From Acidobacteriota bacterium (GTDB lineage: Bacteria; Acidobacteriota; Thermoanaerobaculia; Multivoradales; UBA5704), in the NCBI GenBank assembly GCA_040005235.1, contig JBDTZG010000021.1:25668-89667 (forward strand): DNA of 64,000 bases. The letters are read 5' to 3'. A program made the translations under genes and the position numbers. Below the pieces are notes generated by a model that worked only from the letters and a program-made list of their open reading frames with translations, was not told the DNA's origin and searched no databases. Positions 9,485 through 55,765 of this stretch are shown here, one piece after another. Every line of letters begins with the position of its first letter. Positions within the stretch are counted from its first letter, which is position 1.

Positions 9485-10774
9485 ATGGCAATCTCTCCGA
9501 CCTCCAAGCCGCCGGTACCGCGATTCCGGCTCTCGTGGACCGAAAACGTCCGCTTCGCTCTAAATGCCATGAAGGCGCAGAAGCTGCGCACCTTTCTCAC
9601 GCTCCTTGGGGTCGTCGCCGGAGTCGCCACGGTGATCATGATGGTCTCGTTCGTAGTCGGCTTTGACCGCTCGATCACCGCGGCGTTTACCAGTTTCGGC
9701 ACCCATCTGGTCCAATTTCAGAAATGGGAGAACCGCTTCGGCGACGACTCCGACATGCCGGAAGAGGAGCGCCACCGGAAGAACCTGGAGATCGACGACG
9801 CCAAGGCGCTCAAGCGGCTCGCGCCGCTTGCCGCCGCGGTCTCTCCCGAACGCTATTACTTTCAGCCTCTCGAAGTGGGGTCCGGGCGAAGGCAGGCGAA
9901 CAATCCGATCGTGGTCGGCGTGACCCCGGATTACCTCACGGCGAACTCCTCGGTGATTGGAGACGGCCGATTCTTCACCGATGCCGACGTGCGCCACGCC
10001 GCGCGGCTCGCGGTCGTGGCCCCCGACGTCGTCGAAGCGCTGTTTCCCCAGCAGGACCCGATCGGCCGGACGATCCGGATCTCCGCCTGGAGCTACCAGG
10101 TGATCGGCGTACTGGAGAAGAAGGGCGCGTTCCTAGGCGGCGGCGCCAACAATTTGATCCTGATCCCGATCGCCGCGTTCGACGAGATGCTGCCGGACGT
10201 GAAGAACGGCGAGGGCGACACCCTCCACATCGCGACCGTGCCGCGCCGGCCGGAGGACGTGGACGCCCTGGTCGAGCAGGAAACGGCGATCCTGCGCGCC
10301 CGGCGCCAACTGCGCCCCAATCAGCCGAACGATTTCGCGGTCTTTACCAGCGTCGGCCAGCTCAAGAACTTTCAGCAGATCACCGGCGGCATCGCCGCGG
10401 TGATGATCCTGATCGCCGCGATCGCCCTGGTCGTAGGGGGCGTGGGCGTGATGAACATCATGCTGGTGAACGTCACCCAAAGAACGCGCGAAATCGGATT
10501 GAGAAAAGCCCTCGGCGGCACCCGCCGCGACATCGCGATCCAATTCCTTTCCGAAGCGATCACGCTCACCGGCATCGGAGGAGCGATCGGCATCGCGATC
10601 GGCCTGGGGGTGGCGCTACTCGCCCGAGTCGTCTTCGACTTCCAAGCCGCGGCGCCCCTCTGGTCGGTCTTTCTAGGCTTCGGAGTCTCGACCACAGTAG
10701 GCCTCGTCGCCGGCCTCTGGCCGGCGCTCAAGGCGGCGCGCCAGGATCCGATCGAGGCGTTGCGGTACGAGTAA
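9485..10774 (+). CDS. MacB/FtsX-family ABC permease
   Basis: RTFLTLLGVVAG, NIMLVNVTQRTREIGLRKALG, DPIEALRYE. Confidence 0.93.
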   Translation: MAISPTSKPPVPRFRLSWTENVRFALNAMKAQKLRTFLTLLGVVAGVATVIMMVSFVVGFDRSITAAFTSFGTHLVQFQKWENRFGDDSDMPEEERHRKNLEIDDAKALKRLAPLAAAVSPERYYFQPLEVGSGRRQANNPIVVGVTPDYLTANSSVIGDGRFFTDADVRHAARLAVVAPDVVEALFPQQDPIGRTIRISAWSYQVIGVLEKKGAFLGGGANNLILIPIAAFDEMLPDVKNGEGDTLHIATVPRRPEDVDALVEQETAILRARRQLRPNQPNDFAVFTSVGQLKNFQQITGGIAAVMILIAAIALVVGGVGVMNIMLVNVTQRTREIGLRKALGGTRRDIAIQFLSEAITLTGIGGAIGIAIGLGVALLARVVFDFQAAAPLWSVFLGFGVSTTVGLVAGLWPALKAARQDPIEALRYE

Positions 10775-10782
10775 GGGCGCTT

Positions 10783-10885
10783 TTCCTGGGCGCGCCAGGC
10801 TCCAGCCTGGCTTTTTTCGCTGCGAGGCAGAGACTCGGTGGATCGAGTCCAAAAGCGCCACGCTGGAGCGTGGCGAGCCCGGGAA
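10783..10885. repeat. Inverted pair of REP-like palindromes between convergent genes; likely also terminates transcription
   Basis: CCTGGGCGCGCCAGGCTCCAGCCTGGC (10785-10811, followed by T6) resembles the reverse complement of 10857-10883; central hairpin GACTCG/CGAGTC. Confidence 0.7.
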
Positions 10886-10894
10886 GCTCTTCGA

Positions 10895-12694
10895 TCAGCG
10901 TTTGGCGCCGAGCGTCGCGTTGCCCTCCATCACCCGAAACACCGGCATCAATCCAATCGTCTCGTCCCAGTAGGGCGTCCGGCGATACCACCAGGTATAC
11001 CGGGCCTGCGGGTCGTTCGCGAGCTTCTCGTCGCGGAGGGCTGCTTCCCACTCTTTGGCGATCTGTGGATCTTTCAGGCGTTTCCGGATCATCGGTTCGA
11101 GCACTTTAGGGTCGATGTATTCCTTCCCTTCAAAGAGGGTCGAGAGCAGGCCCCAGGAGAGCAGCGAATCTGGGGCGTCGGGCTCCAGGAGCTGGGCGGC
11201 GACTTCGAAGTCGGGTTGATCGGCGGGGACCCAGAGCGCTCCGGCCGGGATTTTTCGGGTCTCTCGGCGGCGCTCGACTTTGATCTCCGTCACGCTGGTC
11301 AGCCCCTGATACGTGGATTCGGCGTATTTTGCTTCGGACAGGCGCGCCACTTCGACCTCGATTTCGAGCGGCGCGGCGACGCGAGAAAAACGTAGGCCCT
11401 GCGCCGCGAGGCGCTCTTCGATCTGCGGCCAGCCGGGCATCACGACGTAGGCGCGCGGACGAGGCACCGAGAGGGTGGATTTCGAGCCGTGAACCCAGGG
11501 CACCTCGATCGTCTCCGTTCGAGCTCGATCGAACAGCGTCACCGGTTTACCCGTGACGACCGACGCTTCGGAGTGCGAGGCATAGACCGGCCAGCGGTAA
11601 TGATCGCCCGTGTCGCTCTCTGCCCAATGCAGGGCGATCTCGGACGGCGGCGCGCCGGGGCGGCCGATCTCGATCTCGTGCGCTTCGGCCGCCGCGACCG
11701 CGTCGATCAAGCCGCGCGGATCTTTGTTCACCTCCGCGAGCAGTCCGGCGAGGAATGCGCGGACCGAAAGCACCCGGTCGCGATACGGCTTGTAGGAGTG
11801 GGTTTCGATCAAAATCGAAGGGCGGTTGCGCAGCGCGAAGTAGCCGGTGGAATACCGGGCGCCGCCGACCCAGGAGGTGAAGCCCTTGGTAACGTCGGTC
11901 CGATCGAGCAGATCGACGTACGGCCCGGCGGGATATCCCGCGCTCTCTACCGAGGCGACAGCGGCCGGAACGTGCGCCTTCATCCAGGCATCGACGGGGG
12001 CCGGCAGCTGAGGCGCTTCGACCGCCGTCCAGGTGAACACCGCCGGCATGTCGACCCCGTCGGTGACGTGGATGTCGACGTGAAGGTGCGGCCGCCAGGT
12101 ATTGACCAGGGCGACCAGGGCGCGCGCTTCGGGGCTCGCGAGCTTTACGTGGTCGCGGTTCAAATCGAACCCCTGTGCTGTGCTGCGGAAGCCCATGCCG
12201 TCGACCGGTCCGTTCTGGTTCGGCCGGTTGTAGGGAGAGATCCGCTCGTGGCCGTCGGCGTTGTAGATCGGCAGGAACAGGAAGGTGGCACCTTCCATCA
12301 GCTCGCGATTCTTTCCCGCTGCCCAGTCGGCGAGCAGCAGCATCGTCGCGTCCTTGCCGTCGATCTCTCCGGCGTGAATGCCGCTCTGGATTAAGAGGAT
12401 GGGCCGGGTCGGCTTCTCGCCGGGCTGCGGCGGATCGAACTTTCGATCCTTGGCCACGATCACCAGCGGAAGCTCGCGGCCGGCCGCCGAATGGCCGAAC
12501 GTGGTGACCTTCATTTCGGGGAAGTGCGCGGCGAGTTGATGCAGCCAGGCGATCGTCTCGTCGAACGTCGGCGTGCGCCGGAAATCCGACGCTTCGATCG
12601 GGGTCGCCGCGCGGTCTGAGGCGGCAGCCGGCACGGCGGGGAAAATCGCTGCGAGAAGCGTTGCGACGAGGGTCGAGCGGAGGTCGTGTCTCAT
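10895..12694 (-). CDS. Secreted M14 zinc carboxypeptidase
   Basis: IHAGEIDG, DLNRDH, VDIHVTDG; signal peptide begins MRHDLRS at 12694. Confidence 0.9.
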   Translation of the reverse strand: MRHDLRSTLVATLLAAIFPAVPAAASDRAATPIEASDFRRTPTFDETIAWLHQLAAHFPEMKVTTFGHSAAGRELPLVIVAKDRKFDPPQPGEKPTRPILLIQSGIHAGEIDGKDATMLLLADWAAGKNRELMEGATFLFLPIYNADGHERISPYNRPNQNGPVDGMGFRSTAQGFDLNRDHVKLASPEARALVALVNTWRPHLHVDIHVTDGVDMPAVFTWTAVEAPQLPAPVDAWMKAHVPAAVASVESAGYPAGPYVDLLDRTDVTKGFTSWVGGARYSTGYFALRNRPSILIETHSYKPYRDRVLSVRAFLAGLLAEVNKDPRGLIDAVAAAEAHEIEIGRPGAPPSEIALHWAESDTGDHYRWPVYASHSEASVVTGKPVTLFDRARTETIEVPWVHGSKSTLSVPRPRAYVVMPGWPQIEERLAAQGLRFSRVAAPLEIEVEVARLSEAKYAESTYQGLTSVTEIKVERRRETRKIPAGALWVPADQPDFEVAAQLLEPDAPDSLLSWGLLSTLFEGKEYIDPKVLEPMIRKRLKDPQIAKEWEAALRDEKLANDPQARYTWWYRRTPYWDETIGLMPVFRVMEGNATLGAKR

Positions 12695-12736
12695 AGGGGC
12701 CGATGCTAGCAGGTGCCCTCTTCTATACTGGCCGCC

Positions 12737-14734
12737 ATGACCTCCCCTCCGGAGTCTTTCCTTCGCCGGCTGGCCGCCCGGCTTCGGCCGCGCTTGCTCG
12801 CCCGGACTCTCCTCGCTCTGGGCGCGGTGGGCCTTCTGCCGCTCGGCATCGTCTCGTTCGGTCTTGCGGATCTGAACCGCGGGGCGATCGAAGATCAGGT
12901 GCTGCGCACCCACGCGCTCGCCGCCAACACGGCCGCGGAACGGGTGGCCTCGTTCCTGGCGGTCCGCCGATCGCTCGCCGAAGGGATGGCCGGAAACCCT
13001 GCTTTGGCCGAGCCGACCTCCCCCGAAGCGCAGGACCTGTTGCGCCAGAATCTCGGCGCTTGGGCGGACCTCGGGGTGCTGGCGATCGCGATCGTCGACC
13101 GCGAAGGGCGCGAGGGCTTGAGGGCGCAGATCAAGGGGGCCGACCGGGTACGGATCGATCGGGCGCTCGCGGCGGGAGGCGCCGGGGCCGCGGGAGGAAC
13201 GGGGGCGAGGGAGCCGATTCCGGTGATGAGCCCGCCCGGTGATTTGAGGGGGCTCACCGTGGTGCTGACCGCGCCGCTGCCCGGAGCGGTGGGCGCCGAG
13301 GGGCTCTCGGTTGGCGCCGTCCGGCTGGTCTGCGACGGGGAAGCGCTGGTCGACATCGCGCAGCCCAACGAAATCGGCGAAGAGGCCGATCTGTTGATCA
13401 TCGATCGGGCGCGGCAGCCGATCGTCGCCTCCGGCACGCCGCTCGCGGGGTTTCCGGAAGAGCTGGTCAGGAATGCCACCTCTGGCAAGCTCGGTGGCGC
13501 CCGTCGTTTCCGCGACGCTTCGGGCGAGACGATTCTCGGAGCCTACGCGCCCGTGCCGCGTTCGAGCTGGTCGGTCCTGTCGCGGCAGCCGGCGCGCGTG
13601 GCCGACGCGGTGGCGAATCGCCTGCGCCGTCGCGCTTTCCTTGCGATCGGTGCCGCCCTGGCGTTGATCGCGGCGCTCGGCGGCTTGGCGTACTGGACCG
13701 TCATCAAACCGCTGCGCGATCTGGTCCGCGCGCAGCGACGACTCGCGCGGGGGGGAGCCTTACGAAGCGGCGACGAGATCGCCGATCTCAAAAATGCGTT
13801 TTCGCTGCTCGAAAGAAGCGTTTCGGACCGCGAAGCGCTGGCCCAGATCTTCCTCGGCCGCTACCAGGTGATCGAGCTGCTCGGTTCGGGCGCTATGGGC
13901 TCGGTGTTCCGCGGCTGGGACCCCCGGCTCGAACGGGCGGTGGCGCTCAAGACCGTGCGCCTGGGCGACCTGCCCAGCTCGGAGTCGCGCTCCAAACAAC
14001 TGCAGACCTTGCGGCGCGAGGCGATCACCGTCGCGCGCCTGAACCATCCGAACATCGTCGCGGTTTACGACGTAGAGGACGCGGTCGAGGCGGCGTTCAT
14101 CGCGATGGAGCTGGTCGACGGCGCGAGCCTCGAAAGCCTGTTCTGGAACCGTGGCAAGCTCACGGCCGAAGAGGTGATTCCGCTCGGCGCGGCGATCGCC
14201 AGGGGGCTCGCGGCGGCGCACGAACGGGAGATCCTTCATCGCGACGTCAAGCCGGCGAACCTGCTGCTCGGCCGCGATGGGGCGATCAAGATCACCGATT
14301 TCGGAATTTCCGAGCTGGCCTCGGTCTCCGAGCGCGGCGGGGCTTCGATCTTCGGCACGCCCGGCTACATTCCGCCCGAGACGCTGCGCGGTGAAGGGTA
14401 TGGCCCGAAGGGGGATCTGTTCGCCTTGGGCGTCGTGCTCTACCACGCCCTCGTGGGTAAGCGGCCGTTCGCCGGAGGGACGGTGAGAGACGTGGTGCGG
14501 GCGACCCTCACCGATCAGCCCGTGCCGCCGAGCCAGCGGGTGCAGGGCCTGCCGGAGCCGCTCGACGCCCTGGTGCTCTCCCTGCTCGCCCGCGATCTGG
14601 ACGGTCGGCCGGAAAGCGCCGCAGCGGTTGCCGCGACGCTCGAAAGTCTGGCCGCCGAGCTGCGCCTACGGTGGCGCTGGCGGCCGGAATACGAATCGAC
14701 CCAGACGCAGGAGATCGTCAAGCTGGCGGCCTAA
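12737..14734 (+). CDS. Membrane Hanks-type Ser/Thr kinase with periplasmic Cache-like and HAMP-like regions
   Basis: Two TMs flanking a sensor domain; GSGAMG, VALK, HRDVKPAN, DFG, GTPGY. Confidence 0.9.
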   Translation: MTSPPESFLRRLAARLRPRLLARTLLALGAVGLLPLGIVSFGLADLNRGAIEDQVLRTHALAANTAAERVASFLAVRRSLAEGMAGNPALAEPTSPEAQDLLRQNLGAWADLGVLAIAIVDREGREGLRAQIKGADRVRIDRALAAGGAGAAGGTGAREPIPVMSPPGDLRGLTVVLTAPLPGAVGAEGLSVGAVRLVCDGEALVDIAQPNEIGEEADLLIIDRARQPIVASGTPLAGFPEELVRNATSGKLGGARRFRDASGETILGAYAPVPRSSWSVLSRQPARVADAVANRLRRRAFLAIGAALALIAALGGLAYWTVIKPLRDLVRAQRRLARGGALRSGDEIADLKNAFSLLERSVSDREALAQIFLGRYQVIELLGSGAMGSVFRGWDPRLERAVALKTVRLGDLPSSESRSKQLQTLRREAITVARLNHPNIVAVYDVEDAVEAAFIAMELVDGASLESLFWNRGKLTAEEVIPLGAAIARGLAAAHEREILHRDVKPANLLLGRDGAIKITDFGISELASVSERGGASIFGTPGYIPPETLRGEGYGPKGDLFALGVVLYHALVGKRPFAGGTVRDVVRATLTDQPVPPSQRVQGLPEPLDALVLSLLARDLDGRPESAAAVAATLESLAAELRLRWRWRPEYESTQTQEIVKLAA

Positions 14735-16561: not shown

Positions 16562-16750
16562 GTAGCGTCCTCCATCCTGGAATCAGAATCGTCACCGCAA
16601 TGCTGCCGCGGATTGTTTGGATACCGGCGAGTCTATCCGGCATTTTGCCTTGCGCAATGCGTAGAACATGCCAGAAGAGCCAAGATGCCCGGGCGTTGTG
16701 ACCGGTGCCACGAATTCGGCCCCCGTGCGGTGTCCGCCCCCCTGGGTTAG

Positions 16751-18628
<1,878 letters not shown>

Positions 18629-32519: not shown

Positions 32520-32687
32520 GTTCAGTTCTCCGTAGGGGAAGCGCCGAGGGGATGGAGGACTGTAGCGGGCGATTAGGTCGAAAGCGGTCCTAAAGAGGGT
32601 CGGGGTCAATAGGGGATGACCGAGCTTGACGCCGCCGTTCGCACCGGCCACGATAGTCGGGATGCCACTCAACCAAGGAGGCTCCCC

Positions 32688-33455
32688 ATGGAGACACGTC
32701 TTCGGAAACCGGGCGAATTCTGTTGGATCAACATGTTGACGCCGGAGCCGGAGGTGGCGCGGGAGTTCTTCGCCAGGCTGCTGCGTTGGGAGTATGCCGA
32801 AATGCCGGGGATGGGCCATGTGGTGAAGGTCGGAGGACGGCCGATTGGCGGACTGTTCGATTTGGCATCGCCGCAAACCCCTCCGGGGACTCCGCCGCTG
32901 ATCGGCGTGATGGTGAAGGTCGAAAGCGCCGAGGCGACCTGCGAGAAGGCCGTGGGGCTCGGCGGCACGGCGAAGCCGGGGTTCGACATCGCCGAGCAGG
33001 GGCGGATGGCGGAGTGCTTCGATCCGAACGGCGCGGAATTCGACCTATGGGAGCCGAAAAAGGGCCAAGGCACGGATGTCGACGTCACCCTGCACGGTGC
33101 GCCGAGCTGGTTTGAGACCATCACGTCCGATCCGGCCCGCGCCAAGAGGTTCTACTGCGATCTGTTCGGGTGGACCGCCGAAGACAACGTGAGGCCGGAG
33201 CTCACCTATACGAGCTTCCAGCTCGACGGCGAATACGTCGGGGGGATGATGCCGTTCCTGCCGAAGATGGGGGGCGTCCATCCCCATTGGGGGGTGTATT
33301 TCACCGTTGAGGACGTCGACGAGACCGCGCGTTTGGCTGGCGAGTTGGGTGCGAAGGTGTTCATTCCGGCGCAGGACATCCCCAGAGTCGGCCGGTTCTG
33401 CGGCATCTATTCGCCGCAGGGCGTGATGTTCTACGCCATTCGATACAACGCCTGA
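32688..33455 (+). CDS. VOC/glyoxalase-family protein (two domains)
   Basis: GEFCW...FFARLLRW...DPNGAEF pattern repeated twice; SD AAGGAGG. Confidence 0.88.
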   Translation: METRLRKPGEFCWINMLTPEPEVAREFFARLLRWEYAEMPGMGHVVKVGGRPIGGLFDLASPQTPPGTPPLIGVMVKVESAEATCEKAVGLGGTAKPGFDIAEQGRMAECFDPNGAEFDLWEPKKGQGTDVDVTLHGAPSWFETITSDPARAKRFYCDLFGWTAEDNVRPELTYTSFQLDGEYVGGMMPFLPKMGGVHPHWGVYFTVEDVDETARLAGELGAKVFIPAQDIPRVGRFCGIYSPQGVMFYAIRYNA

Positions 33456-33591
33456 GGCGTTCCAGACGGCCGTTTAGAACGGAGACGCGCATTCAGTTCT
33501 CCAGCGCACTATAGGTGGCAGAGGCCACCTTGCACGCCGGGACTCCGCTCGGTGTTCTTTGGAGGCCCTCTTCCAACGATCAGGAGATGAA

Positions 33592-33759
33592 ATGAAGAAG
33601 AAAAACCAGAAAATCATGCTCCACAAAGAGACGCTACGCGCCCTCGATATGCGGGCTCTGGATCCCGCGGCGGCTGGCGTCTAGACCCTTCGCTGTCAGT
33701 ACAGCGGCTACGGTACCTGTGGCACCTGTGCTGAGACCTGCACCACGAATTACTGCTAG
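33592..33759 (+). other. RiPP (lanthipeptide-like) precursor ORF with in-frame TAG at codon 31; pseudogene or recoded
   Basis: SD AGGAG; MKKKNQKIMLHKETLRALDMRALDPAAAGV*TLRCQYSGYGTCGTCAETCTTNYC*; absent from the ORF track. Confidence 0.75.
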
Positions 33760-33771
33760 ACATTGACTCGT

Positions 33772-33797
33772 GACCGGCCCACTGCGGCGGGCCGGTC
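33772..33797. terminator. Hairpin between convergent genes
   Basis: 9-bp perfect stem GACCGGCCC/GGGCCGGTC. Confidence 0.55.
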
Positions 33798-33809: not shown

Positions 33810-34970
33810 CTAGAACGACTTCTGGCCGAAGTTCATCGCCAGCGCCGCGAGGTCGAGGCCGTCGACGATGTCGTTGCCGTCGAAGTCCGCGGCTCGGAGG
33901 AATCGCGTCTCGCCGCGGCGGGCGCCAAAGGAGAGTGCGAGCGAGATCAGATCCAAACCGTCGACACGGCCATCCTGGTTCAAGTCGCCGGTGAGGAACT
34001 TGGTGCCGGCGATGATGAAACGGGTGACTTCGCGATCGACGGTGTTGGCCGGGCTCGCGAGATCGCGGGAGCGGAAAGCGACTGTGACCACGCCGGTGAA
34101 AGGATTCGTCGGACGGTAACTGATCTCCGCCCGCTGGGCGTCGCCGGAGACGAGTGCGCCCACCTCTTGGCCGTTCACCACCAGGCGGGTCGAGGCGAGG
34201 TCGATCCCCTTGCCGAAGTCGAGCAGCGCAAGGCGGACCGTCACGTCGGCCGGGACGTCCCGGGATTGATCGGCGGGCGCGATCGAACCGACGACCGGCG
34301 GGACCTTGTCGGTGGCGGTCAGCTGGTCTGCCCAAACCTCCGCCATCTTGTCGTAGCCCGCAGCATTCGGATGGAGCTTGTCCAGGCCGCCGCCGTAGAG
34401 CGTGGTGAAGGCGTTCGGGGTTTGCCAGAAGAAGACTTCGAATTGATCGGCGAGCGAGCGCTTCTCGCTCCAGGCGAGGTTACGCAGCGAAGCGGCGAGT
34501 TGGGCGGCCACCTTGTTGTCGGCGTCCCGATTCGCGCTCGGCAGGCGTGGAATGACCGAGGCGTGCACGACTTTGAGCCCGAAGGCCTCGGCCTTGGTGG
34601 CGATGCGCTGCAAATTGAACGTGATGGTTTCAATCGACACCTGGGCGTTGATGTCGTTCGTCCCTTCCATCAGCAGCAGCTTGTCGGCCGGGTTGTTGCG
34701 CAGCACCTGGTCGATGCGGGTGACCCCCTCCGTGGTCGCCTCGTTGCTCAATCCGGCGTTGATCACCTTTGCGTCGGTCTGGCCGCGCGCGATCAGCAGG
34801 TCGTCCAGCCGGCCGGGATAGCCCAGCTCGGACAGCGGGCGGGTCGAGGCGTCGCCCACCCCGAAAGTGATGCTGTCGCCGAACGCGATGTAGCGGTTCT
34901 GCGCCTGCGCCGCGGCCGGAAGCAGCAGCGCGGTGGCGATCAGGCCGAGAGAGAGCCCGCGGGCGCGCAT
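33810..34970 (-). CDS. Secreted SGNH/GDSL hydrolase with Ig-like and dockerin-like domains
   Basis: FGDSIT, GTND, DKLHP; C-terminal GDLNQDGRVDGLD...DFDGNDIVDGLD. Confidence 0.88.
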   Translation of the reverse strand: MRARGLSLGLIATALLLPAAAQAQNRYIAFGDSITFGVGDASTRPLSELGYPGRLDDLLIARGQTDAKVINAGLSNEATTEGVTRIDQVLRNNPADKLLLMEGTNDINAQVSIETITFNLQRIATKAEAFGLKVVHASVIPRLPSANRDADNKVAAQLAASLRNLAWSEKRSLADQFEVFFWQTPNAFTTLYGGGLDKLHPNAAGYDKMAEVWADQLTATDKVPPVVGSIAPADQSRDVPADVTVRLALLDFGKGIDLASTRLVVNGQEVGALVSGDAQRAEISYRPTNPFTGVVTVAFRSRDLASPANTVDREVTRFIIAGTKFLTGDLNQDGRVDGLDLISLALSFGARRGETRFLRAADFDGNDIVDGLDLAALAMNFGQKSF

Positions 34971-36004
34971 CACGGCTCCTGCCTCCAGCGCGCGGAGAGC
35001 TCTGACGGCACGCTTTTTCCTTCGGAGAGCCAACGAAACGTGAGAGCGCCCGACGCGGTGGGCATCAGTCGCGGTCGGTCCGCGCGATCGGCGGCGGGGG
35101 AGTCGGCGGTCAAGATCGCCGCGCGGCGGAGCGGTTTGCCCGTGGCATCCGTGTCGATCGCCTCCCAACCGCGCGGCGCGGCGGTGCGGAAGAGAAGTCG
35201 AATGCCGTCGGCGGTCTTATCCAGCGTTGGGAAGACGGATCCCTTCGGTCCCACCGTGCGCGGCGCGGACCAGCGGTTGGCTTGCTCGGTGGATAGCACG
35301 GCGGTCATCACCCGGTAGTCGTTGCCGTCGAAGCTCGCCCAGGAGAGCAGCGCCCCGGAGTCGGTCGAAACGAGCGCGGGCGTGATGTCGGGCACCCTGT
35401 TGCCGGGGGCCACGGGATGCGGAGGAGTCCAGGCGCCGCCCGGCCGGCCGCGGCTCCAGAGGATCTCGTCGTCCTCGCCGTCGAAGGCGCTCCAGGCAAG
35501 GACGTAGGAGCCATCGGCGAGGCGCGCCGCAGCGAGCGCGAGCTGGCTGCCCGAACCGGGAGGCGAAATCGTCCGCGATGCCGACCATCGGCCGTTTTGG
35601 AACCGCGCGGCTTTGACCGCTAGCGACCGTTCGTCCGTCCCTTCAAGCCAGGCGAGCCCGGCGAACCGTGCACCGGCGAGGAGGGCGATCGCGTGCTCCT
35701 GAACCGGGGCCGAGGCGGGAGGACCAGAGAGGAAGCGACGGGGACCGGCGGTGCCCTGGCCGAGAAGGACGAACAGCTCCCGCAGGTCGCCGTGCGGGCG
35801 CGTGCCGAGCGCGATCCAGGAGGCATCGGTTCCCGCGACCGATTCGAGCGCCGCGCCGGCCGGAAGCCGCGGATCGACGATTACGCCGGAATCGAGTGCC
35901 AGCCGCTGACCGTCGCGGCCGGCAACCAACGTCGGCGCGGCGTACGCGGTCGCGGCACTGGCCGCGAGGAGGCAGAAAATCCGGAGCGATTTGGCCTGGA
36001 GCAT
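34970..36004 (-). CDS. Secreted hypothetical protein (beta-rich repeats)
   Basis: Signal peptide; repeated W..FDG.D motif; TGATG coupling to the SGNH gene. Confidence 0.7.
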   Translation of the reverse strand: MLQAKSLRIFCLLAASAATAYAAPTLVAGRDGQRLALDSGVIVDPRLPAGAALESVAGTDASWIALGTRPHGDLRELFVLLGQGTAGPRRFLSGPPASAPVQEHAIALLAGARFAGLAWLEGTDERSLAVKAARFQNGRWSASRTISPPGSGSQLALAAARLADGSYVLAWSAFDGEDDEILWSRGRPGGAWTPPHPVAPGNRVPDITPALVSTDSGALLSWASFDGNDYRVMTAVLSTEQANRWSAPRTVGPKGSVFPTLDKTADGIRLLFRTAAPRGWEAIDTDATGKPLRRAAILTADSPAADRADRPRLMPTASGALTFRWLSEGKSVPSELSARWRQEP

Positions 36005-50615: not shown

Positions 50616-50812
50616 CCCGGCACCGGGAAGGCCCTTCCCGTGTCCCCAGAACCCCCTTCCCTGAACCGGGAAGGCCCTGCCCGGTCATCGGGAACCCCCT
50701 TCCCTGAACCGGGAAGGCCCTGCCCGGTCATCGGGAACCTCCTTCCCAGGCGTCGGGTAGGCCCTTCCCGGTCGCCGGAAACCCCTTCCTCGGGCCGGGG
50801 ATGGCCCTTCCC
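50616..50812. repeat. Intergenic tandem array of about 4.5-5 copies of a 43-bp unit
   Basis: CCGGGAAGGCCC-like cores at 50623, 50666, 50709, 50753 and 50796; two central units identical. Confidence 0.85.
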
Positions 50813-50974
50813 TGCGATCTGGCAGCTCGAGCGCCTTGGGCCGGCAGCACCCGCCATTTACGCATCAGCCCCTTTCGCCCGGTGTACACTTGCCGCCAAG
50901 GCAAAAAGTCAGGCGGCCTTACCGCCGCCGCTCTTCAAGAACAGGCAGAAAGAATGGAAATCCGAGGTGCTGCG

Positions 50975-52894
50975 ATGCTGCCGAAGCGCAACTCCCGTCT
51001 CACGACTCCGTTCGTCCGCGAGGGCGGGGTGCTCCGCGAGGCGACTTGGAATGAGGCCCTGGAGCGGGTTGCCGCGGGCTTTGCCCGGGCGATCGAGAAG
51101 GGCCGGGCGACGGGTCAATCGCCGTTCGGTTTGTTCTCCTGCTCTAAGACCACCAACGAGATGAACTACACGGCGCAAAAGTTCACCCGTTCGGTGATGG
51201 GCAGCAACAATATCGACAGCTGCAACCGAACGTGACACGCCCCTAGCGTCGTCGGTCTGGCGACGGTCTTCGGAGCAGGGGGCAGCACCAGTTCCTACCG
51301 CGAGGTGGAGGAAACGGATCTGATCATCTTGTGGGGTAGCAACGCCCGCGAGACGCATCCGATCTTCTTCCATCACGTCTTGAAGGCGCTCCACAAGGGG
51401 GCGAAGCTGATTGTGGTCGATCCGCGTCGGACGACGTCCGCCCAATGGGCCGATACCTGGCTCGGGATCGACGTCGGCACCGACATCGCGCTCGCCAATG
51501 CTGTCGGCCGGGAGATCATCGCGAACGGCTGGCACCATGCCGATTTCGTCGAGAGCTCGACCAGCGGCTTTGAGGCCTACAAGGCGCACGTCGAGCGCTA
51601 CACCCTGGAGTACGCGGAGAAGACGACCGGCGTGCCGGCCGCGCTGATCCGTCGGACGGCCGAGATCTACGCCAAGGCCGAGAAGGCCGAGCTGTGCTGG
51701 ACGCTCGGCATCACCGAGCACATGCACGGGGTGGACAACGTGGTCGCCCTGATCAACCTCGCGTTGCTCACCGGTCACGTCGGGCGCTACGGCTCGGGTT
51801 TGAATCCCCTGCGGGGCCAAAACAACGTCCAGGGCGGGGGCGACATGGGCGCGCTTCCCGATCGCCTGCCGGGGATTCAGCATGTCGAAAACGACGCTCT
51901 GCGCGCGAAGTTCGAGACCGCCTGGGGGACGCCGATTCCGCCCAAGAAAGGGTGGCACCTCTCCGAGATGTTCGAAGCGATGGAGCACGGCCAGCTCGAC
52001 ACGCTCTATGTGATCGGCGAAAACCCGGCCGACTCCGAAGCGGATCGCCATCGGGCGCTCAAGCTGCTTTCCGGGCTCGAACTGCTGGTGGTCCAAGACA
52101 TCCTGTTCACCAAGACCGCCGAGATGGCCGACGTGGTGCTCCCCGCCGCGGCCGGCTGGTGCGAGTCCGAAGGGACGGTCACCAGCAGCGAGCGAAAAGT
52201 ACAGCGGGTGCGCCGCGCCGTGGCGCCTCCGGAAGGGGTGCGCGACGATCTGGCGGTGATGTTCGATCTCGCCCGGCGGTTGGGCCACGAGTGGGGCGAG
52301 CCGGTGGCGGAGAAGGTCTGGGACGAGCTGCGCCGCCTAAGCCCCGTTCATGCCGGGATGAGCTATCCCCGGTTGGAAGAAATGGGCGGCATCCCCTGGC
52401 CCTGCTATGACGAGTCGCACCCCGGCGAACTTTTCCTTCATTCGCGGCTGTGGGAACGGCCGGTGCTCGGGCCGCGGGCGCCGTTCAGTTGCGTCGAGCA
52501 GATCGCCCCGGCCGATCCGTTGGACGAGACGTTCCCGTTGCGCCTGACCACCGGACGGCATCTCGACTCCTACAACACCGGCGTCCAGAGCGGCGGCTAC
52601 AACTATCCGCGGCGGCTTGGGCCCACGATCGATCTGGCCCCGGAAGACGGCGAACGCTGGGGGGTGGAAGAGGGCGAGACCGTGAAGATCAGCTCGCGGC
52701 GCGGCTCGGTGCTCGCGCCGGTGCGGTTCGACCAGGGGCTGCGCCCCGGGCTCGCCTTCATGACGCTCCATTTTCCGGACCAGATGGCGACCAACGACCT
52801 GACGCTCGACGCGGTCGATCCGCGTTCCGGCACGGCAGAGTTCAAGGCCACGGCCATCCGATTGGATCGGGTGCCGGAAGAAGTACTCGCGTAG
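50975..52894 (+). CDS. fdhF: Formate dehydrogenase catalytic Mo/W subunit, selenoprotein (Sec TGA at 51233-51235)
   Basis: NNIDSCNRT-U-HAPS joins the two track ORFs in one frame; LRGQNNVQG; downstream SECIS. Confidence 0.92.
51233..51265 (+). promoter_or_regulatory. Bacterial SECIS element
   Basis: TGA, 11 nt, then stem CGTCGTC / loop GGTCT / GGCGACG; similar to the E. coli fdhF SECIS. Confidence 0.88.
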
Positions 52895-52910
52895 ACGGAG
52901 GGAGAACCGC

Positions 52911-54761
52911 TTGGACCTGCATTTCACCTCAGATCAGCCGAACGCGGACGAGCGGGCCGCCGTCGATTCCGAGCTTGGCGCCCCTTCCACCGCCTGGAGC
53001 GGCGGCACGCGGGGAAGCGATCTCGACGGCCGCACGTCCGGCGGCGGAATTTCGGCCCAGGCTCGCCATCGCCTGCTGCCGACGCTCCATGCGATCCAAG
53101 CTCGGATCGGCTGGATCAGTCCCGGGGCGCTCAACTACGCGAGCTTGCGGCTAGGTCTGCCGCCCGCCGAAACGTATGGCGTCGCCTCGTTCTACGGCCT
53201 GTTTTCGACCATTCCTCGGCCGCCGGTGGTGGTTCACATCTGCGACGACATCGCCTGTCGCGCCCGGGGCGCGGAGGAGATGCTGGAGGTCTTGGGCTCG
53301 ACCGGGGTGATCCCCTCTTCCGCCACCTGGCTGCGCAGCCCCTGCCTTGGCCTGTGCGAGCGGGCGCCCGCCGCTCTGCTGACGGCGGCGGGAGTGGGGC
53401 ATGGCGAAAAGGTGCTGGCTCCCGCGACGGTCCAATCGATTCGCAGCGCCCTGATCGATCCGGACGTCTCGGGCGCGCCGGACGTCCTCTCGGCTGAGCG
53501 GTCGGTTCCCCAAGCTGTTCGATCGGATCAACCGGGCGCGCCGCAGCTGCGGCTTCTCTCCCGGATCAACCGGCCGGATGCCGGGACGCTCGGCGGATAC
53601 CTCACGACCGACGGCTATCTGGGCCTCGCCAAAGCGATCGAGATCGGTCCCGAGCGGGTGGTGGAAGAGGTGCTCACAAGCAAGCTGCTCGGCCGCGGCG
53701 GCGCGGCGTTTCCCGCCGGGCGGAAGTGGCAGAGCGCGCGGGATTCGGGCCGGCAGCCGCTGCTGGTCTGCAACGCCGACGAGTCGGAGCCGGGGACGTT
53801 CAAAGACCGGGTGCTGATCGAAGGGGACCCGTTCGCGTTGATCGAGGCGATGACGATCGCGGGCTTCGCGATCGGCGCGGAGTTGGGCTACCTCTACCTG
53901 CGCGGCGAATACCCTCTCGCCTGGGAGCGGATGGAGCACGCTCTTTCGGCGGCGCGGAAGAGCGGCCATCTCGGCGGCGACATCCTGGGTAAGGGCGTCA
54001 AATTCGACATCCAGCTGTTCCGCGGTGCGGGGGCCTACATCTGCGGCGAGGAGACGGCGCTGTTCAACTCGATCGAGGGGTACCGCGGCGAGCCGAGGAA
54101 CAAGCCGCCGTTCCCCACCCAATCGGGTCTGTTCGGCCGGCCGACGGTGGTCAACAACGTCGAAACCCTGGTGAACGTGCCTTGGATTCTGCGCGACGGG
54201 GCAGCGGCGTTCGCGGCGCTCGGCACGGCGGGATCGACCGGCACGAAGCTCTTCTGCCTCTCCGGCGCGGTGGCGCGGCCGGGCGTCTATGAGGTGACGT
54301 TCGGCGCTACGCTACGCGAGCTGCTCGACCTCGCCGGAGGAACCACCGGCGAGCTGCGCGCGATCCTGATGGGTGGGGCGGCCGGCGGCTTCCTCGGACC
54401 CGCGGATCTCGACGTGCCGCTCACCTTCGAAGGTCTGCGCGCGGCGAGCGCGGCGCTGGGCTCGGGCGTCGTTCTGGTGTTCGACGAGACGGTCGATCTG
54501 GCCGACATCCTGGTGCGCATCGCCGCCTTCTTCCGCGACGAATCGTGCGGTCAGTGCGTCCCCTGCCGGGTGGGCACGGAGCGGCAGGAAGAAATTCTGG
54601 AGCGCCTGGTGAGGAAGCGGCCGATCGGCTCGGTGGATCAAGAAATCGCGCTGCTCAAAGAGATGGGCCAGGCGATGCGCGACGCGTCGATCTGCGGCCT
54701 CGGCCACACGGCGTCCTCGGCGATCGAATCGGCGCTCTCCCGGTGGAGGATCTTTACGTGA
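52911..54761 (+). CDS. NuoE-NuoF-like fused diaphorase subunit of an NAD-linked FDH
   Basis: CDDIAC...CLGLC, GRGGAAFP, NADESEPG, GAGAYICGEE, CGQCVPCR. Confidence 0.9.
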   Translation: MDLHFTSDQPNADERAAVDSELGAPSTAWSGGTRGSDLDGRTSGGGISAQARHRLLPTLHAIQARIGWISPGALNYASLRLGLPPAETYGVASFYGLFSTIPRPPVVVHICDDIACRARGAEEMLEVLGSTGVIPSSATWLRSPCLGLCERAPAALLTAAGVGHGEKVLAPATVQSIRSALIDPDVSGAPDVLSAERSVPQAVRSDQPGAPQLRLLSRINRPDAGTLGGYLTTDGYLGLAKAIEIGPERVVEEVLTSKLLGRGGAAFPAGRKWQSARDSGRQPLLVCNADESEPGTFKDRVLIEGDPFALIEAMTIAGFAIGAELGYLYLRGEYPLAWERMEHALSAARKSGHLGGDILGKGVKFDIQLFRGAGAYICGEETALFNSIEGYRGEPRNKPPFPTQSGLFGRPTVVNNVETLVNVPWILRDGAAAFAALGTAGSTGTKLFCLSGAVARPGVYEVTFGATLRELLDLAGGTTGELRAILMGGAAGGFLGPADLDVPLTFEGLRAASAALGSGVVLVFDETVDLADILVRIAAFFRDESCGQCVPCRVGTERQEEILERLVRKRPIGSVDQEIALLKEMGQAMRDASICGLGHTASSAIESALSRWRIFT

Positions 54762-55765
54762 TCGAACAGCCGCACCAGAAGAGCCCGGTCGATGCGCCCG
54801 ATCTGCGCATTCCGGTCCCGCGCGGACCGCTGCCGATCCTGCCCGACCGGCCGTCCAAGAAAACCGTCGAAATTGTGATCGACGGCAAGACGGTCGCGGT
54901 CGAGGAGGGTAAGACCATCCTCCAAGCGGGGCGCGAGATCGGCATCGACACGCCGACGCTCTGCTATTTGGAAACGCTCGAACCGGTGAACGTCTGCCGT
55001 ATCTGCGTGGTCGAGCTCGAAGGCTCGCGCACGCTGGTGCCGGCCTGCTCGCGGAAGGTCGAGCCGGGGATGAAGATCCAGACCGATTCTGAGCGTGTCC
55101 GCCTTTCGCGCCGGATGGTGCTCGAATTCCTCGCCTCCTCGGTCGACGTTTCTACCGCTCCCGCGATCCAGGAGTACATGGTCCGGTACGGCGCGAAGCC
55201 CGAGCGTTTCGGCCCCCCCAGCCCGAGAGCGTCGGAGGGAGAGCGCGACGCGGCGCGCGCCGGAGCGCACGAAACGGCCGACGGATCGACCGCCGGCACG
55301 GTGCGCCAACCGGTGAAGGTCGACAACGACCTCTACGTCCGCGACTACAGCAAGTGCATCCTCTGCTACAAATGCGTCGAAGCGTGCGGCGAGGACGCGC
55401 AGAACACCTTCGCCATCGCGGTCGCCGGCCGCGGCTTCGACGCGCGGATCTCGACCGAATACGCCGTGCCGCTGCCCGAATCCGCCTGCGTCTACTGTGG
55501 CAACTGCATCGCGGTATGCCCGACCGGAGCCCTGATGGGCAAAGCCGAGCACGACCTCCGCGAGGCGGGGACTTGGGACGAATCGAAACAGACCGCGACC
55601 GACACCATCTGCCCCTACTGCGGAGTCGGCTGCACGCTCACTCTCCACGCCCAGGACGAGCAGATCGTCAAGGTGACGTCACCGCTCGATCAGTTCGTGA
55701 CGTCGGGAAACCTGTGCGTCAAGGGGCGGTTCGGGTATGGCTTCGTGCGCGGGGAGCGGCGGTAG
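54758..55765 (+). CDS. Fe-S subunit corresponding to the FdsA/NuoG N-terminus, ending with the molybdopterin Fe4S4 domain
   Basis: PTLC...CRIC...C, CILCYKC, CVYCGNC, terminal CPYCGVGC...LCVKGRFG. Confidence 0.9.
   Translation: MIEQPHQKSPVDAPDLRIPVPRGPLPILPDRPSKKTVEIVIDGKTVAVEEGKTILQAGREIGIDTPTLCYLETLEPVNVCRICVVELEGSRTLVPACSRKVEPGMKIQTDSERVRLSRRMVLEFLASSVDVSTAPAIQEYMVRYGAKPERFGPPSPRASEGERDAARAGAHETADGSTAGTVRQPVKVDNDLYVRDYSKCILCYKCVEACGEDAQNTFAIAVAGRGFDARISTEYAVPLPESACVYCGNCIAVCPTGALMGKAEHDLREAGTWDESKQTATDTICPYCGVGCTLTLHAQDEQIVKVTSPLDQFVTSGNLCVKGRFGYGFVRGERR

What the first reader, a model, noticed from the sequence alone, without database searches (positions are those of the whole stretch)
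33592..33797. Hidden RiPP precursor with an amber codon at the leader/core junction
Seen: an ORF missed by the track reads MKKKNQKIMLHKETLRALDMRALDPAAAGV-TAG-TLRCQYSGYGTCGTCAETCTTNYC-TAG, with a good SD and a downstream hairpin. The TAG (33682-33684) falls two codons after an AG double-glycine-like site. The core behind it is intact and in frame, with 5 Cys and 7 Ser/Thr. Known: basic LxKET-type leaders with Cys/Thr-rich cores typify lanthipeptide-like precursors. No modifying enzyme or transporter is adjacent, so maturation would be in trans. Inference: either a recent nonsense change (for example TCG to TAG) or sequencing error, or programmed readthrough/pyrrolysine insertion, or a leader-only peptide acting on the synthetase. 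Many genes here end in TAG, so global recoding is unlikely and nonsense mutation is the simplest explanation.
Basis: partly seen in the sequence, partly recalled or inferred. Interest (0 to 1): 0.78.

Follow-up and report, generated by a model that had tools for sequence, protein, structure and literature searches.

The report
Lanthipeptide-type precursor gene broken by amber
A small gene for a Cys/Thr-rich peptide of a type that databases label class I lanthipeptide precursor, common in Acidobacteriota, carries a stop codon where its relatives have tyrosine, so it is most likely an ordinary recently broken copy.

Summary
An ORF with a strong Shine-Dalgarno site starts at 33592, meets TAG at 33682-33684 (codon 31), and continues in frame for 24 intact codons to a second TAG (33757-33759).

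Read through, it belongs to a large family of ~55-aa peptides: 513 cluster representatives at E<=1e-3. Members are found in Acidobacteriota/Thermoanaerobaculia MAGs. 85 of 104 scanned members match NCBIfam NF038153, the "class I lanthipeptide" leader L1a.

- **The amber replaces Tyr.** The closest intact relative (P0211, 69% identical, ungapped) has Tyr opposite the amber. The two relatives with DNA in hand read TAT and TAC. So the change is TAY->TAG, not TCG->TAG.
- **TAG is a normal stop here.** It ends 12 Pfam-supported genes in the window.
- **No supporting machinery in view.** The 64 kb hold no tRNA, pyl, LanB/LanC, radical-SAM maturase or C39 transporter. The relatives' loci (±10 kb) also lack maturases.
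- **No other decay.** The core keeps all invariant residues.

Verdict: a recent nonsense allele (pseudogene) of a known kind of precursor. Sequencing error is the main rival; programmed readthrough is unsupported. Interest is low to moderate.

The parts
33582..33586 (+). Shine-Dalgarno AGGAG, 5 nt upstream of the ATG
   Evidence: Read directly.
33592..33681 (+). Leader, 30 codons (MKKKNQKIMLHKETLRALDMRALDPAAAGV). It has the I-x-L-x-K-x5-L form of the LxLxKx5L motif.
   Evidence: NF038153 matches residues 1-23 at 19.1 bits. The motif is described for class I LanAs in PMC7268733 (passages read). The identical 30-aa ORF product is a database entry, P0007.
33682..33684 (+). In-frame amber codon (codon 31), inside the palindrome GTCTAGAC. 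Tyr stands here in the closest relatives.
   Evidence: Tyr31 of P0211 aligns to it without gaps. L001 reads TAT and L002 reads TAC. In the CQ[YF]S subfamily the position is Y in 31 of 51.
33685..33756 (+). Untranslated remnant of the core peptide, 24 intact in-frame codons (TLRCQYSGYGTCGTCAETCTTNYC)
   Evidence: all residues that are invariant in the 7-sequence alignment are retained. Non-synonymous difference pN is 0.14-0.16 against synonymous pS 0.73-1.0 versus L001 and L002.
33757..33759 (+). Family-typical stop directly after the C-terminal Cys
   Evidence: Relatives also stop straight after ...TN(Y/F)C.
33772..33797 (.). G+C-rich hairpin between the precursor and the convergent GDSL-lipase/dockerin gene (33810-35168, minus strand)
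   Evidence: -22.7 kcal/mol, z = -1.68. Not called a terminator. The neighbouring gene is identified.

Best explanation
**What it is.** This is a single, unlinked copy of a widespread Acidobacteriota family of ~55-aa precursor-type peptides. Members combine a basic MKK...LxLx(K/R)ETLxxL leader of the NF038153 'class I lanthipeptide L1a' type with a Cys/Thr-rich core that ends ...TCxTCxxTC(T/G)TNxC.

**What happened.** In this copy the first residue of the conserved core, a tyrosine codon (TAC or TAT), has changed by one third-position base to the amber stop TAG. Ribosomes should therefore release a 30-residue leader-only peptide and never make the core. The gene is a recent null allele (pseudogene).

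**How intact relatives would work (inferred from family knowledge, not shown here).**
- The leader would dock on a LanB-type dehydratase and a LanC cyclase encoded elsewhere in the genome.
- Five Ser/Thr that are invariant in the 7-sequence alignment (T32, S38, T42, T45, T52) would be dehydrated.
- They would be linked to the five invariant Cys (C35, C43, C46, C50, C55).
- The leader would be removed on export.
For: **Shown by the calls**
1. The ORF, the TAG and the intact in-frame core are there.
2. Intact relatives exist. Four proteins match at E 3e-15 to 9e-14. Two Acidobacteriota MAG loci match. A profile search finds 513 representatives at E<=1e-3 and 19 at <=1e-10. A word-indexed search finds 229 proteins at E<=1e-5, two of them named 'class I lanthipeptide [Thermoanaerobaculia bacterium]' and two 'natural product precursor'.
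3. Tyr aligns with the amber:
   - all 6 homologues of the 7-sequence alignment A2;
   - 11 of the 24 other sequences in a wider alignment, namely every one whose core has the same spacing;
   - P0211, the closest at 69% identity with no gaps;
   - the codons TAT in L001 and TAC in L002.
4. The leader family is NF038153. It matches 85 of 104 members. The window's sub-threshold 19.1 bits is shared by its nearest intact relatives, which score 0-16 bits. It is therefore a subclade trait, not decay.
5. TAG is an ordinary stop. It ends 18 of 52 rough calls, including 12 Pfam-supported genes. One is BamA, whose Omp85 match runs to the last residue and the last profile position.
6. There is no tRNA in the window and no Rfam hit.
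7. Selection on the family core is strong: pS 0.73-1.0 against pN 0.14-0.16. The window core keeps every invariant residue, so the break is young.
8. The window's other genes show full-length Pfam matches. L001, by contrast, has split genes. This argues for good sequence quality in the window.
9. The 30-aa truncated product is recorded on 2 contigs, the longest 19,034 bp, which is shorter than the window. By inference, another assembly carries the same stop.
Against: - The reads could not be inspected, so a base-call or consensus error at 33684 is not excluded.
- The core shows no second lesion. That is what one expects of a very recent break, but equally of an intact gene with one wrong base, or of a gene that is still translated through the TAG.
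- Only 64 kb of the genome is visible. A suppressor tRNA, pyl genes or the maturation enzymes may lie elsewhere.
- The lanthipeptide mechanism is inferred from the leader family only. No LanB, LanC or C39 transporter is in the window or within ±10 kb of the precursors in L001 and L002.
Their independence from the window is not proven.
- In the wider CQ[YF]S subfamily the position is not always Tyr: Y 31, I 11, A 6, V 2, M 1 of 51.
Confidence: 0.65

Rival explanations
1. Sequencing, consensus or minority-variant artefact. The organism really has TAC or TAT (Tyr) at codon 31 and the gene is an intact, functional precursor.
For: - The lesion is a single base.
- Everything else in the gene is intact and conserved.
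- A related MAG locus (L001) shows that assemblies of such organisms can carry errors, including a frame break in its own leader.
Against: - The window's other genes look full-length, with no split genes seen.
- The errors seen in L001 are indels, not substitutions.
- The same 30-aa truncated ORF product is recorded on 2 contigs of at most 19 kb.
- No intact protein with this leader was found among 5.8 billion clusters. The search returned only 5 candidates, and the best intact one is 67% identical.
Confidence: 0.15
2. The amber is decoded by a suppressor tRNA, by pyrrolysine, or by near-cognate readthrough. The full prepeptide would then still be made, perhaps at a throttled level.
For: - The core behind the TAG is intact and keeps all invariant residues.
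- The organism does appear to use one recoding system: a TGA lies inside a formate-dehydrogenase-like gene at the SCNRT-U-HAPS position.
- From general knowledge, not tested here: near-cognate readthrough of UAG can insert Tyr or Gln.
Against: - TAG terminates 12 Pfam-supported genes at their expected ends.
- The window has no tRNA and no pyl gene among the scanned ORFs.
- No relative has TAG at this position. Both DNA-level relatives have TAY, and all protein-level relatives are uninterrupted ORFs.
- A scan for other in-frame TAGs flanked by coding-like sequence returned 6 sites. Two are boundaries between adjacent genes. The other four are short minus-strand segments that I did not follow up.
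Confidence: 0.05
3. The family is not a lanthipeptide at all. This is independent of the stop-codon question. It could be a leader-bearing, disulfide-rich secreted peptide or bacteriocin, or the substrate of another maturase such as a radical-SAM enzyme.
For: - No LanB or LanC lies near the precursor in 3 of 3 loci examined.
- 27 of 104 members also hit TIGR04149 (rSAM-modified RiPP with GG leader) at E<=0.01.
- No experimental paper on this family was found.
Against: - The TIGR04149 scores seen individually are below that model's cut-off of 25 bits.
- NF038153 is the better match, with 85 of 104 members.
- Five invariant Cys is an odd number for a disulfide-only peptide.
- Each invariant Cys has an invariant Ser/Thr 3-5 residues upstream, which fits thioether rings. 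This is inference.
- Precursors encoded far from their synthetase have a precedent in the prochlorosins (PMC7268733, passage read).
Confidence: 0.25
4. The 30-residue leader-only peptide is itself the functional product, for example as a modulator of the maturation enzymes.
For: The truncated ORF has a good ribosome-binding site and is recorded as a predicted protein.
Against: - No other leader-only member surfaced in the searches.
- Conservation in the family is concentrated in the core.
- No enzyme partner is in view.
Confidence: 0.02

Closest known systems
Class I lanthipeptide precursors (LanA) with the LxLxKx5L / Gly-Gly leader, NCBIfam NF038153 lant_leader_L1a, first noted in Bacteroidetes (PMC7268733)
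   Same: - Same leader type: basic N-terminus and an (I/L)xLx(K/R)ETLxxL motif.
- Most relatives end the leader in GG.
- The core is rich in Thr/Ser and Cys.
- Family members are named 'class I lanthipeptide' by NCBI.
   Different: - The window copy scores below the model cut-off, as do its nearest intact relatives.
- It has an amber at core residue 1.
- It lacks a canonical GG.
- It has no LanB, LanC or C39 transporter nearby.
- The host lineage is Acidobacteriota rather than Bacteroidetes.
Prochlorosin-type arrangement (precursors scattered far from their lanthipeptide synthetase)
   Same: Precursor genes stand alone or in small tandem sets without an adjacent enzyme. This is so in the window and in L001 and L002. 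The paper states that many prochlorosin precursors are encoded distantly from their LanM (PMC7268733).
   Different: - Prochlorosins are class II (LanM) with Nif11-type leaders in cyanobacteria.
- Here the leader is of the class I L1a type.
- The existence of a distant enzyme is not shown.
TIGR04149 GG-leader radical-SAM-modified RiPP precursors (Cytophaga-Flavobacteria-Bacteroides group)
   Same: Similar MKK...L.L.KE.I..L...GG leader. 27 of 104 family members hit at E<=0.01.
   Different: - The scores seen individually are under the 25-bit cut-off, and the window peptide itself does not hit.
- No radical-SAM maturase is in the window. The only radical-SAM protein is ThiC.
Pyrrolysine-containing genes (in-frame UAG decoded by pylT/pylS)
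   Same: An in-frame UAG followed by conserved coding sequence.
   Different: - Relatives have Tyr codons, not UAG, at the site.
- TAG is a frequent true stop here.
- No pyl gene or tRNA is in the window.

Membership tests
Class I lanthipeptide precursor (NF038153 L1a-leader type) | Leader matches the NF038153 HMM at or above its 22-bit cut-off | tested here: not met
   - Window: 19.1 bits, E 0.0011.
- Nearest intact relatives are also below cut-off at 0-16 bits.
- 3 of 4 first homologues are above cut-off.
- 85 of 104 family members match at E<=0.01.
Class I lanthipeptide precursor (NF038153 L1a-leader type) | LxLxKx5L leader motif (PMC7268733) | tested here: met
   I8-x-L10-x-K12-x5-L18 in the window peptide, with Ile in place of the first Leu. 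The motif is quoted from passages read.
Class I lanthipeptide precursor (NF038153 L1a-leader type) | Core with Cys, and Ser/Thr placed N-terminal of them, for thioether rings | tested here: met
   Five invariant Cys, and five invariant Ser/Thr each lying 3-5 residues upstream of a Cys. Ring formation itself is not testable here.
Class I lanthipeptide precursor (NF038153 L1a-leader type) | LanB dehydratase and LanC cyclase in the gene neighbourhood | tested here: not met
   No Lant_dehydr or LANC_like hit among the ORFs scanned across the 64-kb window. None within ±10 kb in L001 or L002. The rest of each genome was not seen.
Class I lanthipeptide precursor (NF038153 L1a-leader type) | Uninterrupted reading frame through leader and core | tested here: not met
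   TAG at codon 31.
Double-glycine (C39/PCAT-processed) leader peptides | GG, GA or GS at positions -2/-1 of the cleavage site, and a C39-peptidase ABC transporter nearby | tested here: inconclusive
   - The window has A-G-V before the amber.
- The closest relatives have VG(M/L)(V/A). Most of the family has GG (58 of the 71 sequences that match the core pattern).
- No Peptidase_C39 was found in the window.
Pyrrolysine / amber-recoded gene | UAG conserved at the site in relatives; pylT/pylS present; UAG rarely used as a stop | tested here: not met
   - Relatives read TAT or TAC.
- There is no tRNA in the window.
- TAG ends 18 of 52 rough gene calls.
- The whole genome is not available.
TIGR04149 rSAM-modified RiPP | HMM at or above the 25-bit cut-off, and an adjacent radical-SAM/SPASM maturase | tested here: not met
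   The window peptide has no hit. Relatives score 11.9-19.1 bits. No such maturase is in the window.

The most novel reading that the evidence does not exclude
The amber is not a dead end. The cell would decode UAG at codon 31 at a low or conditional rate, through a suppressor tRNA elsewhere in the genome or through near-cognate tRNA-Tyr/Gln. In the Tyr case this would restore the ancestral residue. The stop would then act as a throttle on production of a potent modified peptide that distant, promiscuous enzymes mature in trans. The evidence does not exclude this: the core is fully intact, and only 64 kb of the genome was visible.
Probability: 0.04. Interest if true: 0.7.

Novelty: new member of a known kind. 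Interest (0 to 1): 0.27.

Why it matters
As a broken gene it matters little. It is a reminder that gene callers hide small RiPP-type precursors, and that a single in-frame stop should first be checked against relatives.

The family behind it is of some wider interest:
- It has hundreds of distinct members in Acidobacteriota/Thermoanaerobaculia metagenomes.
- Its C-terminal TCxTCxxTC(T/G)TNxC core is strongly conserved.
- No maturase lies next to it in 3 of 3 loci examined.
- My literature searches found no experimental study.

If these peptides are matured in trans by distant LanBC enzymes, they would be a soil-bacterial counterpart of the prochlorosin system.

Tried and rejected
- **Pfam on the peptide:** no hit. 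The newer PF28317 Lant_leader_dom appears only as a precomputed label on a few relatives and in Atlas clusters.
- **ESM Atlas with the intact homologue P0004:** best score 0.87, to 'class I lanthipeptide' clusters. That is below the tool's 0.9 level, so it is a lead only.
- **Paralogues in the window:** none. The best other tblastn hits have E >= 0.03, which is noise.
- **Locus L003** from the genome scan is a ferredoxin-like CxxCxxC protein and not a relative. I dropped it.
- **Plasmid collection (tblastn with P0004):** no match.
- **Rfam:** only a sub-threshold chance hit on the hairpin (STnc450, 18.9 against 37 bits). There is nothing at gathering score in the whole window.
- **Promoter and terminator consensus scans:** 0 sites.
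- **Upstream regions of the window, L001 and L002:** no conserved element across all three.
- **Scan for other coding-flanked in-frame TAGs:** 6 sites passed. Two are boundaries between adjacent genes. Four are short minus-strand segments that I did not follow up. The precursor's own TAG did not pass this filter, because the short core has a second-position G+C of 0.71. The scan is therefore weak for small genes.
- **The listing of cluster members was switched off.** The provenance of the 2 contigs bearing the truncated ORF stayed unchecked.
- **Closed or spent resources.** As a result the window's own genome, the contigs of P0211 and P0010, and any distant LanB/LanC/pyl genes stayed unchecked.
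- **Not attempted:** structure prediction and complex prediction, which are uninformative for a 55-aa modified peptide with no partner in view.

Full report
**1. What is in the sequence**

The + strand reads AGGAG (33582-33586), then 5 nt, then ATG (33592). Thirty sense codons follow, then TAG (33682-33684), then 24 further sense codons in the same frame, then TAG (33757-33759).

With TAG shown as X, the product is MKKKNQKIMLHKETLRALDMRALDPAAAGV-X-TLRCQYSGYGTCGTCAETCTTNYC.

- It contains no in-frame ATG, GTG or TTG (codon list), so it cannot be translated separately.
- A 9-bp G+C stem lies at 33772-33797. Its centroid energy is -22.7 kcal/mol, its z-score is only -1.68, and 13 of 200 shuffles fold as well. 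It has no T-run, and the consensus scan calls neither a terminator nor a sigma-70 promoter.
- The gene sits between a two-domain glyoxalase/VOC gene (32616-33455, +) and a convergent GDSL-lipase/dockerin gene (33810-35168, -).

**2. The part behind the stop is a real, conserved core**

A word-indexed search with the read-through peptide returned four intact metagenomic proteins of 54-63 aa (E 3e-15 to 9e-14). It also returned the window's own 30-aa leader-only ORF product, P0007.

A scan of species-representative genomes found two true relatives, both in Acidobacteriota MAGs: L001 and L002. A third locus was a ferredoxin-like false positive, which I dropped.

A profile of the seven sequences then gave:
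- 513 cluster representatives at E<=1e-3 and 19 at <=1e-10 among 1.84 billion proteins;
- 229 proteins at E<=1e-5 in the word-indexed collection.

Where a source names them, they are:
- 'class I lanthipeptide [Thermoanaerobaculia bacterium]' (P0219, P0269);
- 'natural product precursor' (P0168, P0180);
- hypothetical proteins of Thermoanaerobaculia or Acidobacteriota MAGs (P0215, P0236).

By inference, the window's organism is probably an acidobacterium. Its genome was not in the scanned collection.

**3. What the amber replaces**

- In the seven-sequence alignment, all six homologues have Tyr opposite X31.
- In a 25-sequence alignment, 11 of the 24 other sequences have Tyr there. These are all the sequences with the same core spacing.
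- Among the 120 proteins listed, 51 carry the x-T-x-x-C-Q-(Y/F)-S core. In those, position x is Y 31, I 11, A 6, V 2, M 1.
- The closest relative, P0211, is 69% identical over 55 of 55 residues without a gap, and it has Tyr31. The next closest, P0010, also has Tyr.
- At the DNA level L001 reads TAT and L002 reads TAC.

The parsimonious event is therefore TAY->TAG, a single third-position change.

**4. Is TAG a stop in this organism?**

- A rough GC3-based gene call gives 52 ORFs, ending in TGA 26 times, TAG 18 times and TAA 8 times.
- Twelve of the TAG-terminated ORFs have Pfam support: BamA, LpxA-like, HlyD, ThiC, 3-hydroxyacyl-CoA dehydrogenase, Nramp-Usp, GDSL-dockerin, DoxX, the molybdopterin oxidoreductase, OsmC, PGI-like and glucokinase.
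- BamA's Omp85 match ends on the final residue and the final profile position, so TAG terminates it exactly where expected.
- The window has no tRNA and no Rfam family at gathering score.
- A scan for other in-frame TAGs flanked by coding-like sequence returned 6 sites. Two are junctions of adjacent genes in the same frame. Four are short minus-strand stretches that I did not pursue. This filter is weak for small genes; the precursor itself does not pass it.

Nothing points to amber recoding. However, 64 kb cannot exclude a suppressor or pyl locus elsewhere.

**5. Decay or not?**

Against L001 and L002, the core shows saturated synonymous difference (pS 0.73-1.0) but pN of only 0.14-0.16. The family core is thus under strong purifying selection. 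The window copy retains every residue that is invariant in the alignment.

Its leader scores 19.1 bits on NF038153, under the 22-bit cut-off. Its nearest intact relatives score 0-16 bits. The low score is therefore a subclade trait rather than erosion.

The single lesion is consistent with three readings:
- a very recent break;
- one wrong base;
- continued translation through the stop.

Two points favour a real allele:
- The window's other genes give full-length domain matches. L001, by contrast, has split genes and a frame break in its own leader.
- The truncated 30-aa product is recorded on 2 contigs, the longest 19,034 bp. That is shorter than the window, so by inference it comes from another assembly. 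I could not verify the provenance, because the listing of cluster members was off.

No intact protein with this particular leader turned up.

**6. What kind of peptide is it?**

- The leader has the (I/L)xLx(K/R)x5L motif. Walker et al. describe this motif for class I LanAs of Bacteroidetes. They say it often ends in Gly-Gly and is often accompanied by a C39 protease (PMC7268733; passages read).
- 85 of 104 family members match NF038153 at E<=0.01. 27 also touch TIGR04149, and 4 touch NF038158. In the hits I saw individually, TIGR04149 stayed below its 25-bit cut-off.
- The Atlas neighbours are 'class I lanthipeptide' clusters at 0.87, which is a lead only.
- The 7-sequence alignment shows five invariant Cys (C35, C43, C46, C50, C55). 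Five invariant Ser/Thr (T32, S38, T42, T45, T52) each lie 3-5 residues upstream of a Cys. This fits a five-ring (methyl)lanthionine peptide. That reading is my inference; nothing here tests it.

**7. Where are the enzymes?**

- No LanB, LanC, LanM, C39 transporter or RiPP-type radical-SAM enzyme is among the ORFs I scanned across the window (8, 48). The only radical-SAM protein is ThiC. A HlyD/MacB-type set lies 23 kb away.
- In L001 and L002 the ±10 kb flanks likewise hold none.
- Those loci do carry further peptides with the same leader type and different Cys-rich cores: L001 8091-8288 and 8486-8671, and L002 9733-9927. The window has no paralogue.

So the defining neighbourhood feature of a class I cluster is not met in 3 of 3 loci. 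The family works like a lanthipeptide precursor by leader and core logic. Membership stays unproven, and trans maturation is the working assumption. The prochlorosins are a precedent (PMC7268733).

**8. Literature**

- Searches for Acidobacteria(ota) with class I lanthipeptide, LanB or LanC terms listed only general mining papers. I saw these as listings and abstract starts only.
- 'NF038153' occurs in no held paper.
- I found no experimental study of this family in these searches. Subscription journals are not covered.

**9. Verdict**

The locus is most likely a recently inactivated, unlinked member of a known kind of precursor family (confidence about 0.65). A sequence error is the main rival (about 0.15). 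Programmed readthrough is unsupported (about 0.05). Whether the family is truly lanthipeptide is a separate open point.

Interest is low to moderate. The broken gene itself is ordinary. The large family, uncharacterised in the literature I could search and not linked to enzymes, is the more useful lead.

Noticed in passing
window 51233-51235 (gene about 50801-52894, +): An in-frame TGA lies inside a formate-dehydrogenase-like molybdopterin gene, at the motif SCNRT-U-HAPS. This is very likely selenocysteine. The ORF list splits the gene at this point. No SECIS search was done.
   Followed up: partly
window 50801-55765: Unusual order of formate-dehydrogenase parts. The catalytic molybdopterin part comes first (to 52894). 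A NuoF-like gene follows (52911-54761). A separate ORF (54545-55765) then carries the 2Fe-2S, 4Fe-4S and Molybdop_Fe4S4 N-terminal modules and ends in a non-TGA stop.
   Followed up: no
L001 8091-8288 and 8486-8671; L002 9733-9927: Further small ORFs with the same MKK...LxLxRETL leader but different Cys-rich cores lie in tandem just upstream of the family member. No maturase lies within ±10 kb.
   Followed up: partly
L001 10000-10021, 10231-11725 and about 11776-13270: This MAG locus shows apparent indel errors. There is a 1-nt frame break in the precursor's leader after ATGAAGAAGACCGTAAAGAAA. Glycerol kinase is split, with FGGY_N in ORF 10231-13023 and FGGY_C in ORF 11003-11725, and a DAO oxidoreductase is also split.
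   Followed up: partly
L002 1707-8084 (-): A 2125-aa polymorphic-toxin-like protein lies about 2 kb from the precursor genes. It carries SpvB, FG-GAP, TcdB middle/N, RHS repeats and a C-terminal GH-E HNH nuclease.
   Followed up: no
L001 8944-9159 (-): A HicA toxin gene (toxin-antitoxin system) lies between the tandem precursors.
   Followed up: no
window 33679-33686 and the whole window: The amber lies in the 8-bp palindrome GTCTAGAC, the only copy in 64 kb. CTAG is strongly depleted: 37 observed against about 202 expected from base composition.
   Followed up: partly
window 16600-16760: No TPP riboswitch, nor any other Rfam family at gathering score, precedes thiC (16760-18628) or lies anywhere in the 64 kb.
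   Followed up: no
window 33810-35168 (-): A GDSL lipase/acylhydrolase with a C-terminal type I dockerin domain is convergent with the precursor.
   Followed up: no
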